Source: Carcharhinus amblyrhynchos
Taxonomy: Eukaryota
DNA length: 64,000 nt
Direction: 5' to 3'
NCBI GenBank assembly: GCA_965287045.1
Contig: OZ336884.1
Coordinates: 14,570,001 to 14,634,000 of the forward strand
The notes beneath the pieces are model-generated. The model saw only the letters and a program-made list of their open reading frames with translations, was not told the DNA's origin and searched no databases. This document shows, piece by piece, positions 17,401-20,400 of the stretch (positions are counted from its first letter, which is position 1; each line of letters starts with the position of its first letter). The translations under genes and the position numbers were made by a program.

Positions 17401-20400
17401 TGCAGACTCTGCATGGAGAGTGACCCAAGCCAGAATCAAACCTGAGTCCCTGGCGCTGTGAGGCAGCAGTGCTAACCACTGTTTTGGTGAGATAGAGTGG
17501 CTAGGATTGGACTGAAGTGTCAAGGGTCCAGAATCTGGGTTTTGGATAGCACAGCTACACACATCATGGGATGGAGGATGAATTTAGCAAAGCATATGCA
17601 AAGCATATAGTTTTAATCAGTCTCTAGTAACCATGTAACTGATAATCTGTTAAATGCTACTTGATCACTAAGAACCACTGAAATATCTGACAGTGGACAT
17701 GCATATGTTTAAAAAAGAAGCTGACGAGATGCATAATATAGTGGTTAGGATACTGGACTTGCAACCCAGAGATTGTAGGCTGAATTTTACCAGCTTTTTT
17801 AAGACCGGTTGGAAGGCAATAATACTATGGTAAAATTGTGGCAGCAGGCAATATGACAGACAAGCCACTCCCTTTGAGCTTGAACTGGCCAATTAAGGGC
17901 AATTCCTCTCCTTTACAGGCATTTTTCCAACATTGGGGAGTGTGCTGCTCTGTGGAGAGACCACCCATTGACACCTAGCAGCTGCTTGTATCAAGGTTTT
18001 CTGTGCTACATAGGAACACACTACCTGATCTGATGCAATATTTCTATCCTACCTGTTTCTTGCTCAGTAACTTTTGCATAAGCAGTTTCACTAACTACTT
18101 CATCCAAAAATCACCTTGCCTTCAGAAAGTGTGGTCTGGCTTTAAAACTTGATTTAATTTGTGCTGGTCTTAAACTTGAGACCCCTCCTGAGGCATGCAA
18201 CCACTCAGCACTGTGCTTGTCAATTTAATTAATCTTAGCAGAAAGCACAACGTTTGCAACATTTATGGACAGGCACAAGTTAATCATAATGACTAAGCAC
18301 ATTTCTCAGCCAAATCCATTTTCTCTTCTGACATCTCTAATATTACATGACTCTCTCACTATCTCCTCAATTCTTGGAGATATGCCTGCTGATCTGTAAC
18401 TTTCTGATTTCAAGTGAGAATGCTACCAGAGGTTTAATATCTCCAAAAGGAATTGCAAACATGCATCTTTTGCGCACGAGGATGAATATATCTATGATAT
18501 ATTTTCATGCAATGAAGTTATTATGAAAATGCCCTAATCACCACACTGCTGTGTCTGTTCGGGTACATTAGGGGAGAATTTAGCATGGCCAAAGCAAACC
18601 TAACTGGGAAATATTGATACTGAGATATAACCTTGGAGTATAAATTCATTTGCAAAAACAAAAGCAGAGCAACAAGTTTGATTACCTGGTTTTGCATGCA
18701 AATATTTCTTGCAGTGTTATCTGCTATTTCACAAATAAGAACTCTTGAAACAAAATCCTTTTACAGGTATTGGAACTAAGAAAACTTTTTAGTTCATTGT
18801 TGATTGTAACTTGTTCATTGGTAATACACTTAGCTAGTTCTCAATTGGCAGAACAAAGCCAAACAATGGAATATTTTGTTTTCAAGGGACATAGTAGGAG
18901 AAATATAGAAACTGACTAGATCAGTCCAAATGTATGTTAGTGCAACTCTTGGCCATTTGTGGATTATATTTACAGAGATCAATAAGATGGTTATTTTGCT
19001 CCAATGAGTAAAGAACTTGGATAGGAGGAGACTGAAATCTATTTGAAGTATTTTGCTTTTTTTAATATTCATTTTTGGTTTGTGCCAGCAGTCTGGCATT
19101 GCAATTTTTAATGGTTATATTTTCTGCTCACTTTACAGACCTGTTGTCCCCTTTATACAACAAGTACCTGTGAATGCAATTCTGGATGTATCCAAGTAAG
19201 TTCATATTAACTTTTTATGAAAGTTGGTGATAACTTTAGCTTGTTATATAACCTTTTCTTTAGAGAAGGTTGGTAGGAAGACTAATAACTGGATCAGTTG
19301 GGCTTGCATGTGAAAATAGACTAAGCAAGTAATTTAGTAAGAATTAATTTGAACTTGAGATAAGTCATCAATGTTAAAAATGTTAATATTGTCTCTCTCT
19401 CTCCAGCCCTGCTGAGTATTTCCAGCATTTTCTGTTTTCATTAAATATTTGAATGATTGATTTCAAATCTAGAAACAGTAACTTATTGCTGCTTTCTGGT
19501 GATGTAATACTGGATGTATTGATGCTGAGATATAATCTTACAGAGTACACGTTCATTTGCAAAGATAAAGGGAGAGCAACAAATTTGATTATCTGGTTTT
19601 GTACAGTTAAACTGATGTTTTGTAAGCAGATGAGAACTGATTTTTCTGCTTCAGTACTGCAATTGTAATGATGTGGAGCTGCTGGCGTTGGACTGGAGTA
19701 GGTGCAGTAAGTAGTCTCTCAAGGCCAGGTTAAAGACAAACAGATTTATTTGGTAGCAAGAGCTTTCGGAGTGCTGCTCCTTCATCAGTTGTGGCACTCA
19801 CCTGATGAAGGAGCGGCGCTCTGAAAGCTCGTGCTACCAAATAAACCTGTTGGTCTTTAACCCTGGTGTTGTGAGACTACTTACTCTACGTTTGTAATGT
19901 AGTTACTGATCTAAAATCAGTAGCTTCAGAATAAGTTCTAGCTTATAGTCTGTTTACACTTTCTACATGGTAGTGAAATTCTGCTACAACTGCAACAACA
20001 TTTATATAGCATCTTTAATATAGTAAAACTTCATGAGCTCCTGAACAGGAGAGATTGGATTTTACATAAAATTTGACACTTAAGTCACAAAATGAGACCA
20101 ATATGACAAAAATGCTTTGTTAAAGAGTCAAAGTTTTAAGAGCATCTCAAAGGAGGAGTGAGAAGTAGAGAGACCTGGGGCTGAGGGAGAGAATTCCAAA
20201 GTTTAAGCTCCAGCACAGAATTTTCCCAAGAAAATGGCAAAGTGTCACGTTCAGACTGAAATCTGGCATGTTCCTCACTAGAGAAATAAGCATGTTTTCC
20301 CTCTAAAGCCTCCTACATTTTAAAGCAGGCTGTGGGGCCTAAAGACATTGACAAGCCCAGCTCCACAAAGATTAGTGCGCAATTTTTAAAGCGTGTCTCA

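What the first reader, a model, noticed from the sequence alone, without database searches (positions are those of the whole stretch)
19669..19899. Intronic palindrome with two oppositely oriented hammerhead ribozyme motifs and a compensatory stem I change
Seen: an imperfect inverted repeat of about 86 bp (19706-19791 / 19799-19885). Each arm carries a complete minimal hammerhead. The + strand reads CAC-CUGAUGA-A-GGAGC.GGC.GCUCU-GAAA-GCUC^GUG and the - strand reads CAA-CUGAUGA-A-GGAG.CAGCA.CUCC-GAAA-GCUC^UUG. The arms differ by two transversions at the two partners of the first stem I pair (C-G versus A-U), so pairing is preserved. Known: Penelope-like elements carry minimal type I hammerheads with a palindromic stem III (here AGCU) that are thought to act as dimers. 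Inference: this ORF-less 217-bp unit (TSD-like TTGTAATG on both sides) may be a ribozyme-bearing non-autonomous mobile unit. Transcription in either direction produces a ribozyme preceded by its own antisense arm, which could silence self-cleavage inside the CFAP91 pre-mRNA.
Basis: partly seen in the sequence, partly recalled or inferred. Interest (0 to 1): 0.72.

Follow-up and report, generated by a model that had tools for sequence, protein, structure and literature searches.

The report
Mirror-image Penelope stub in shark intron
This DNA palindrome in an intron of a shark's CFAP91 gene is two short back-to-back copies of the ribozyme-bearing end of a very common Penelope-type jumping gene, in a layout already described; the 'matched' base change is likely chance, and where such copies stop likely marks the start of the element's RNA.

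Summary
The palindrome and both minimal hammerhead motifs are real, in a CFAP91 intron. They are two 5'-truncated ends of an abundant Penelope-like retroelement (PLE; RT plus GIY-YIG) inserted head to head. One arm has the 38-bp tail, and the target duplication is 14 bp, not 8.

The layout is generic: 1371 short head-to-head matches with mostly different junctions; tail on one arm in 65 of 73 pairs; the same at kilobase scale. It is published (PMC3846280, PMC8557442, PMC4209133).

The 'compensatory' A-U pair is in 2 of 1768 copies, against 0.74 expected from the single changes (p=0.19). A self-spreading 217-bp unit is not supported.

Family-level side result: 37 of 111 arms end 28-41 nt upstream of the cut, near a TATA/initiator-like site, with excess G just outside (1579 G, 613 T, 458 A). 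Only 3 end at the cut. Copying of uncut RNA probably runs off its capped 5' end. The scan noted such palindromes before, in this and other genomes.

The parts
19657..19670 (+). Left copy of a 14-bp target-site duplication; its last 3 nt (ATG) are shared with the end of the tail
   Evidence: 11 of 14 identical to 19886-19899; run X7 reads A at 19659 and 19890, which gives 13 of 14
19668..19705 (-). PLE 'tail' (about 38 bp), present on this arm only
   Evidence: Matches the extension that follows the arm in other copies; tail on exactly one arm in 65 of 73 head-to-head pairs
19706..19791 (-). Left arm: 5'-truncated end (pLTR) of the element, inverted
   Evidence: 8 substitutions against the majority of 62 same-subfamily arms
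19757..19791 (-). Minimal type I hammerhead motif, CAA...UUG stem I, 4-bp stem II (fifth pair lost); predicted cut between 19760 and 19759
   Evidence: activity untested
19792..19794 (.). Head-to-head junction; both arms stop within a few nt of the family's 5'-end hotspot
   Evidence: junction diversity; hotspot
19795..19885 (+). Right arm: 5'-truncated end (pLTR), starting at CACTCAC (36 nt before the cut) and lacking the tail; AATAAA at 19840-19845
   Evidence: 3 substitutions and 1 insertion against the majority
19799..19833 (+). Minimal type I hammerhead motif on the CFAP91 sense strand, CAC...GUG stem I, stem II with two G-U pairs; predicted cut after 19830
   Evidence: activity untested
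19886..19899 (+). Right copy of the 14-bp target-site duplication
19197..32898 (+). Host context: CFAP91 intron between the exon matches 19137-19196 and 32899-33078 (boundaries approximate)
   Evidence: tblastn with shark CFAP91 proteins; Pfam PF14738

Best explanation
The unit is two 5'-truncated ends of an abundant Penelope-like retroelement, joined head to head inside a 14-bp target duplication, likely laid down in one old insertion by the element's RT-endonuclease. Inferred steps follow. The endonuclease makes a staggered cut. Each free DNA end primes copying of element RNA, one from the far end of the tail and one from its base, so that one arm has the tail and the other does not. Both cDNAs pass through the uncut hammerhead and likely run off the capped 5' end of the RNA about 35 nt upstream of the cut site. 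Their ends are then joined, giving a new junction each time. Since then the copy has likely decayed neutrally, and the A-U pair is two chance changes. In CFAP91 pre-mRNA the antisense arm is made first and is predicted to lock the sense hammerhead, which as a minimal motif would also need a partner, so it is likely silent.
For: Family size: 14,373 exact matches of a 38-mer 3' of the hammerhead. Link to a PLE ORF: L005 is 95.6% identical to the right arm and carries a decayed GIY-YIG region upstream. L038 scores Pfam GIY-YIG. [quoted passage not shown] Layout: 1371 short head-to-head matches. Of 73 pairs, 65 have the tail on one arm, and 44 have a flank repeat of 7 nt or more, against 154 of 5256 mismatched controls. 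Of 21 long young loci with two detected arms, 20 have one tail. Published: inverted pLTR, optional 31-bp tail and 8-10-bp TSD (PMC3846280); general scheme (PMC8557442); paired minimal hammerheads on opposite strands, no activity as monomers (PMC4209133); two RT start sites bounding the tail, both strands cut and extended, uncut RNA used (PMC11167929). Chance pair. Run-off: 37 of 111 arms end at -41..-28, against 9 and 6 in the flanking 14-nt bins and 3 at the cut +/-2. A TATA-like word lies 26-32 nt before the A at -35 in 15 of 19 listed upstream sequences. The base before ACTCACC is G 1579, T 613, A 458, with 0, 11 and 4 of 30 being long copies. G:A is 18:17 two bases further in (p=8e-4). Hairpin penalty 49 kcal/mol. 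Contigs of runs X5 and X9 (other organisms) bridge the right boundary, so the insertion predates their split.
Against: The intact-ORF copies are a sister subfamily, only 70-79% like this arm; RT was not shown for this exact subfamily. None of 28 long copies had a direct upstream pLTR or the true ORF start, and sequences after 162 tails gave no match to the ORF. The layout 'start site - hammerhead - tail - ORF', which the run-off step needs, is therefore borrowed from other PLEs. About 10 of the 30 G contexts can be explained by the neighbouring inverted arm or a local repeat, and 4 are one duplicated event (my reading), so the G excess may be nearer two-fold. The 111 arms include two near-duplicate pairs and a few doubtful alignments. 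D. virilis Penelope has a TATA-less internal promoter (PMC2377424), and PMC3846280 explains the inverted junction by self-priming on an antisense template. Two A-U copies are more than the 0.74 expected, though not significantly.
Confidence: 0.85

Rival explanations
1. The 217-bp palindrome is itself a non-autonomous mobile unit (MITE- or retrozyme-like) that spreads as a whole and keeps functional hammerheads under selection, hence the compensatory pair.
For: TSD on both sides. Lengths of short pairs cluster near 190-240 bp. pLTR sequences can be mobilised in trans (PMC3846280). Both catalytic cores are intact.
Against: The 50 listed junctions nearly all differ, and none equals this one. Lengths grade from 149 bp to kilobases. 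The clustering follows from the 5'-end hotspot. The A-U pair is not enriched. Retrozymes are head-to-tail repeats with two consecutive hammerheads (bioRxiv 2026.07.22.740005), which is not the case here.
Confidence: 0.05
2. Same PLE origin, but the mirror half is made by fold-back or self-priming (for instance on an antisense template) rather than by two primings, and the 5'-end cluster comes from RT stalling or preferred joining near the hammerhead rather than from the RNA's start.
For: Proposed in PMC3846280. Junctions often show short overlaps and templated fillers. Part of the G excess is explained by the inverted arm.
Against: Simple fold-back does not predict a tail on exactly one arm (65 of 73) matching the two RT start sites of PMC11167929. 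Ends pile up after the hammerhead stems have been copied, not at them. Many solo arms also end there with a G (16 of 30 G contexts were classed solo).
Confidence: 0.25
3. The copy was co-opted by the host as an intronic regulator of CFAP91: a hairpin-gated ribozyme, an editing substrate or a small-RNA source.
For: Long stable hairpin on the sense strand near an exon. The insertion is shared with other organisms.
Against: The left arm carries 8 substitutions in 83 nt against the subfamily majority, close to the 9% mean of the 62 arms. The arms have drifted apart. Over a thousand such palindromes exist. The only other + strand arm found in the gene (42805-42897) lacks the 5' half of the core.
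Confidence: 0.04

Closest known systems
Insertion units of endonuclease-bearing PLEs with inverted pLTR, one-sided tail and TSD (Adineta Pen2a/Pen2, PMC3846280; Fig. 2 scheme of PMC8557442)
   Same: Head-to-head inverted ends, 30-40-bp tail on one end only, TSD, TATA- and initiator-like words in the pLTR.
   Different: Here both halves are cut down to about 90 bp, so no ORF is left. The TSD is 14 bp against 8-10 bp in the rotifer examples.
[quoted passage not shown]
   Same: CUGAUGA and GAAA cores, extra nucleotide before stem II, G10.1 pair, palindromic 15.2-16.2, short stem I. The paper already notes dual motifs 100-700 bp apart on opposite strands.
   Different: Stem II is 4-5 bp here against 7-8 bp in the Schistosoma families. 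The two motifs are only about 10 nt apart. Cleavage was not tested here.
Neptune/Nematis-type PLEs (PMC8557442)
   Same: [quoted passage not shown]
   Different: No tree was built, so Neptune against Nematis is not settled. This copy has no coding sequence.
Anolis Poseidon PAc (PMC11167929)
   Same: Two 3' end positions bounding a tail; copies span the uncut hammerhead; no pile-up at the cut site.
   Different: Different clade. In the parts I read (1-2 of 4) there is no 5'-end hotspot at a start site and no extra G.
Animal non-LTR retrozymes (bioRxiv 10.64898/2026.07.22.740005; PMC7229834 seen in a listing only)
   Same: Non-coding, type I hammerhead, PLE-derived.
   Different: Those are head-to-tail tandem repeats that can yield circles. 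This is a single head-to-head pair with one hammerhead per strand.

Membership tests
EN+ Penelope-like element (truncated insertion) | Arm is the 3' end of an element with a C-terminal GIY-YIG endonuclease | tested here: met
   L005, L021 and L038 carry the GIY-YIG region upstream of the same end; Pfam PF01541 on L038, E=7.8e-5
EN+ Penelope-like element (truncated insertion) | Single ORF with RT then GIY-YIG in the family | tested here: met
   859-aa open frame in L160, RVT_1 E=4.6e-9; this is a sister subfamily, 70-79% like this arm
EN+ Penelope-like element (truncated insertion) | Inverted 5'-truncated copy adjacent, 30-40-bp tail on one end | tested here: met
   Tail 19668-19705 on the left arm only; 65 of 73 pairs; 20 of 21 long two-arm loci
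EN+ Penelope-like element (truncated insertion) | Target-site duplication | tested here: met
   14 bp, 11 identical; 44 of 73 pairs against 154 of 5256 controls; no empty site was seen
EN+ Penelope-like element (truncated insertion) | Partial tandem with direct 5' pLTR in full-length copies | tested here: inconclusive
   None among 28 long copies, all 5'-truncated
Neptune clade | CX2-5CxxC linker before the endonuclease | tested here: met
   C-x4-C-x2-C in L160, L161, L163, L164; the feature is shared with Nematis
Neptune clade | RT phylogeny | not tested
Minimal type I hammerhead | Conserved cores, stems I and II, palindromic helix III | tested here: met
   no Rfam model matched
Minimal type I hammerhead | Self-cleavage (as a dimer) | not testable with these tools
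   Needs a bench assay
Minimal type I hammerhead | Covariation at the first stem I pair within this family | tested here: not met
   C-G 1695, A-G 33, C-T 38, A-T 2; p=0.19; only the A and T variants were counted genome-wide
Non-LTR retrozyme | Head-to-tail tandem with two consecutive same-strand hammerheads | tested here: not met
   One motif per strand in the window
MITE-like non-autonomous unit | Many copies of uniform length and identical interior | tested here: not met
   Varied junctions and lengths of 149-467 bp

The most novel reading that the evidence does not exclude
The thousands of mini-palindromes are a fossil record of the PLE insertion reaction. Both nicked strands prime at the two tail-bounding sites near the 5' end of the transcript, and each cDNA runs off the capped start (TATA about 30 nt upstream, A at -35), often copying the cap as an extra G, before the two are joined. 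These would be integrated 'strong-stop'-like products. They would explain why genomes hold so many solo and opposite-strand minimal hammerheads, and would show that the mobilised RNA is uncut.
Probability: 0.45. Interest if true: 0.55.

Novelty: new member of a known kind. Interest (0 to 1): 0.2.

Why it matters
The locus itself is an ordinary, old transposon stub, with no sign of function in CFAP91. Its value is at the family level. How Penelope-like elements build their inverted ends is unresolved. The end statistics here are a tail on one arm, a 5'-end hotspot at a promoter-like site with excess G, and no pile-up at the ribozyme cut. They give a concrete model that can be tested by 5' RACE and by the existing in vitro PLE assay.

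Tried and rejected
Rfam scan of the window: no hammerhead family at E<=1; only a mir-305 match on an unrelated hairpin.

Compensatory-pair subfamily: rejected.

A spike of 5' ends at the cleavage site as a trace of in vivo cutting: 3 of 111 arms within 2 nt, not a spike.

Search for the ORF start after the tail: nothing in 162 tails or 28 long copies.

Empty site in other organisms: none seen; the contigs break inside the palindrome. Whether they share the CAA and TTG changes could not be read.

Sequencing runs: no RNA holder listed, which says nothing on expression.

Folding each motif alone: neither stands out from shuffles (z 0.42 and -0.36), which is uninformative for a dimer-dependent motif.

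Idea that the C-to-A change was selected to remove a GTGAGT donor on the CFAP91 strand: the intact donor-like word lies on the - strand only, but the left arm is truncated at that point, so this could not be separated from junction noise.

Literature: 'Penelope + strong-stop + retrotransposon' gave 1 unrelated paper; 'Penelope + non-templated G + cap' gave 0. These two narrow searches of an open-access library do not show that the idea is unpublished. No supplements were read; those of PMC11167929 (Figs S1, S2) and PMC4209133 may bear on the 5' ends and on shark motifs.

The genome-wide count of C before ACTCACC was not obtained.

Full report
Observation. The inverted repeat is there: 19728-19791/19799-19862 (89% over 64 nt) and 19706-19734/19857-19885. 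It folds at -142.7 kcal/mol, z=-15.2. Rfam has no matching model. Shark CFAP91 proteins map to + strand exons, including 19137-19196 and 32899-33078, so the unit lies in an intron.

What it is. The arm is a very common repeat: 2788 first-look candidates and 14,373 exact matches of a 38-mer downstream of the motif. Longer copies continue upstream through a 3' UTR into the end of a GIY-YIG frame; L005, 95.6% identical to the right arm, is one. A protein search with that domain gave 55,066 candidates and open frames up to 859 aa. [quoted passage not shown] These intact copies are a sister subfamily whose end is 70-79% like this arm.

Anatomy. Left TSD 19657-19670; tail 19668-19705 and arm 19706-19791 on the - strand; a 3-nt junction; arm 19795-19885 on the + strand without tail; right TSD 19886-19899. 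The TSD copies match at 11 of 14. Run X7 reads A at 19659 and 19890, which would make 13 of 14. Contigs of X5 and X9 bridge the right boundary with more than 31 letters on each side, so the insertion is shared with other organisms; left-boundary contigs reach only 27-28 letters inside.

The layout is generic. There are 1371 matches of two cores back to back within 30 nt (overlaps can count a locus twice). The 50 listed junctions nearly all differ, and none equals this one. Among 73 head-to-head pairs in the fetched loci, 65 have the tail on exactly one arm, lengths run from 149 to 467 bp, and 44 have a flank repeat of 7 nt or more against 154 of 5256 mismatched controls (these loci were picked by several patterns and are not a random sample). 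Long young copies show the same with arms up to about 2.3 kb; 20 of the 21 loci where the motif found two arms have one tail, and 7 of 28 showed one arm. This is the structure described for Adineta Pen2a (PMC3846280; passages and Discussion) and in Fig. 2 of PMC8557442. PMC4209133 (parts 1-2 of 4) already notes dual minimal hammerheads on opposite strands, and no cleavage by a single motif.

The compensatory pair. With one pattern and only the two partner bases changed, the genome holds C-G 1695, A-G 33, C-T 38 and A-T 2. Independence predicts 0.74; Fisher p=0.19, or 0.54 without this copy. The other A-T copy has a different subfamily sequence after the cut and a different junction. The A also lies 2-3 nt from the junction, so it may not be homologous to the consensus C. 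The left arm has 8 substitutions in 83 nt against the majority of 62 arms, whose mean divergence is 9%. The pair is best read as chance.

How it likely works. PMC11167929 (parts 1-2 of 4) shows a PLE protein cutting and extending both strands, starting at two RNA sites that bound the tail, on uncut RNA. One tailed and one tailless arm inside a TSD is what priming from both sides at those two sites would give (inference). The 5' ends add a clue. In 90 loci chosen only by the downstream 38-mer, 37 of 111 arms end at -41..-28 from the cut, against 9 and 6 in the neighbouring 14-nt bins and 3 within 2 nt of the cut (two near-duplicate pairs remain). Both arms of this unit end in that zone. A TATA-like word lies 26-32 nt before the A at -35 in 15 of 19 listed upstream sequences; the initiator-like reading of CCAC/CCAT is from my own knowledge, and PMC3846280 reports a similar TATA-initiator pair. 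The base before ACTCACC is G 1579, T 613, A 458. None of 30 G cases is a long copy, against 11 and 4 of 30 for T and A. Two bases further in, G:A is 18:17 among the first 100 of 4411 listed (my count; p=8e-4). An extra G is the known mark of RT copying a cap (own knowledge). Against this reading: about 10 of the 30 G cases can come from the adjacent inverted arm or a local repeat, and 4 are one event. I found no full-length copy linking the tail to the ORF start. D. virilis Penelope uses a TATA-less internal promoter (PMC2377424, passages). I put the run-off model at about 0.45.

In the host. CFAP91 transcription makes the antisense arm first. Forcing the hammerhead fold costs 49 kcal/mol, and the only other + strand arm found in the gene lacks the 5' core. 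Silence is likely, as a by-product of the geometry rather than as a shown control device.

Comparison and verdict. It works like, and by the tested features is, a truncated EN+ PLE insertion. It fails the defining tests for a retrozyme (bioRxiv 2026.07.22.740005; part 1 of 5 and passages) and for a MITE-like unit. Earlier scan notes report the same kind of palindrome: 82 findings in at least 11 genomes hold all my search words, and 22 notes in this genome fit 'Penelope hammerhead'. One of them also points to the transcription start. I had stated that idea before reading it, and those notes are not independent support. New member of a known kind; interest 0.2.

Noticed in passing
window 34222-34662: Second head-to-head PLE insertion in CFAP91: a young-subfamily tail on the - strand joined to a 98%-identical thumb/linker fragment of the ORF on the + strand.
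   Followed up: partly
window 24840-25302 and 42805-42897: An older, more diverged PLE endonuclease fragment, and a solo arm with tail that starts just before GAAAGCTC and lacks the 5' catalytic core.
   Followed up: partly
window 25923-26010: An 88-bp hairpin with long perfect arms, containing CCTGATGAA but no GAAA core; weak Rfam mir-305 match, far below the gathering score.
   Followed up: no
L260:2551, L265:3388, L272:2920: Three of 28 long young loci have their short arm starting within 2 nt of each other, about 10 nt after the ORF stop codon; possibly a second 5'-end hotspot.
   Followed up: partly
L162:963-5553, L166, L165: Kilobase palindromes with arms 99.3-99.4% identical and long open frames on both strands; the family was active recently.
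   Followed up: partly
window 19788-19796, - strand; family-wide: The reverse strand of the sequence just 5' of the core reads CAG/GTGAGT, a consensus splice donor; antisense intronic copies could offer cryptic donors. Here it is intact only on the non-CFAP91 strand.
   Followed up: no
window 28315-28905, - strand: Open frame with a DDE_Tnp_4 (Harbinger-type) match, E=2.5e-10, in the same intron.
   Followed up: no
L038, L089, L096 against L005: Subfamilies differ by a 7-nt insertion after the cut site and by helix III variants (AGCUC, AGCUA, AGCUU), so family-level hammerhead variation exists even though this copy's pair is chance.
   Followed up: no
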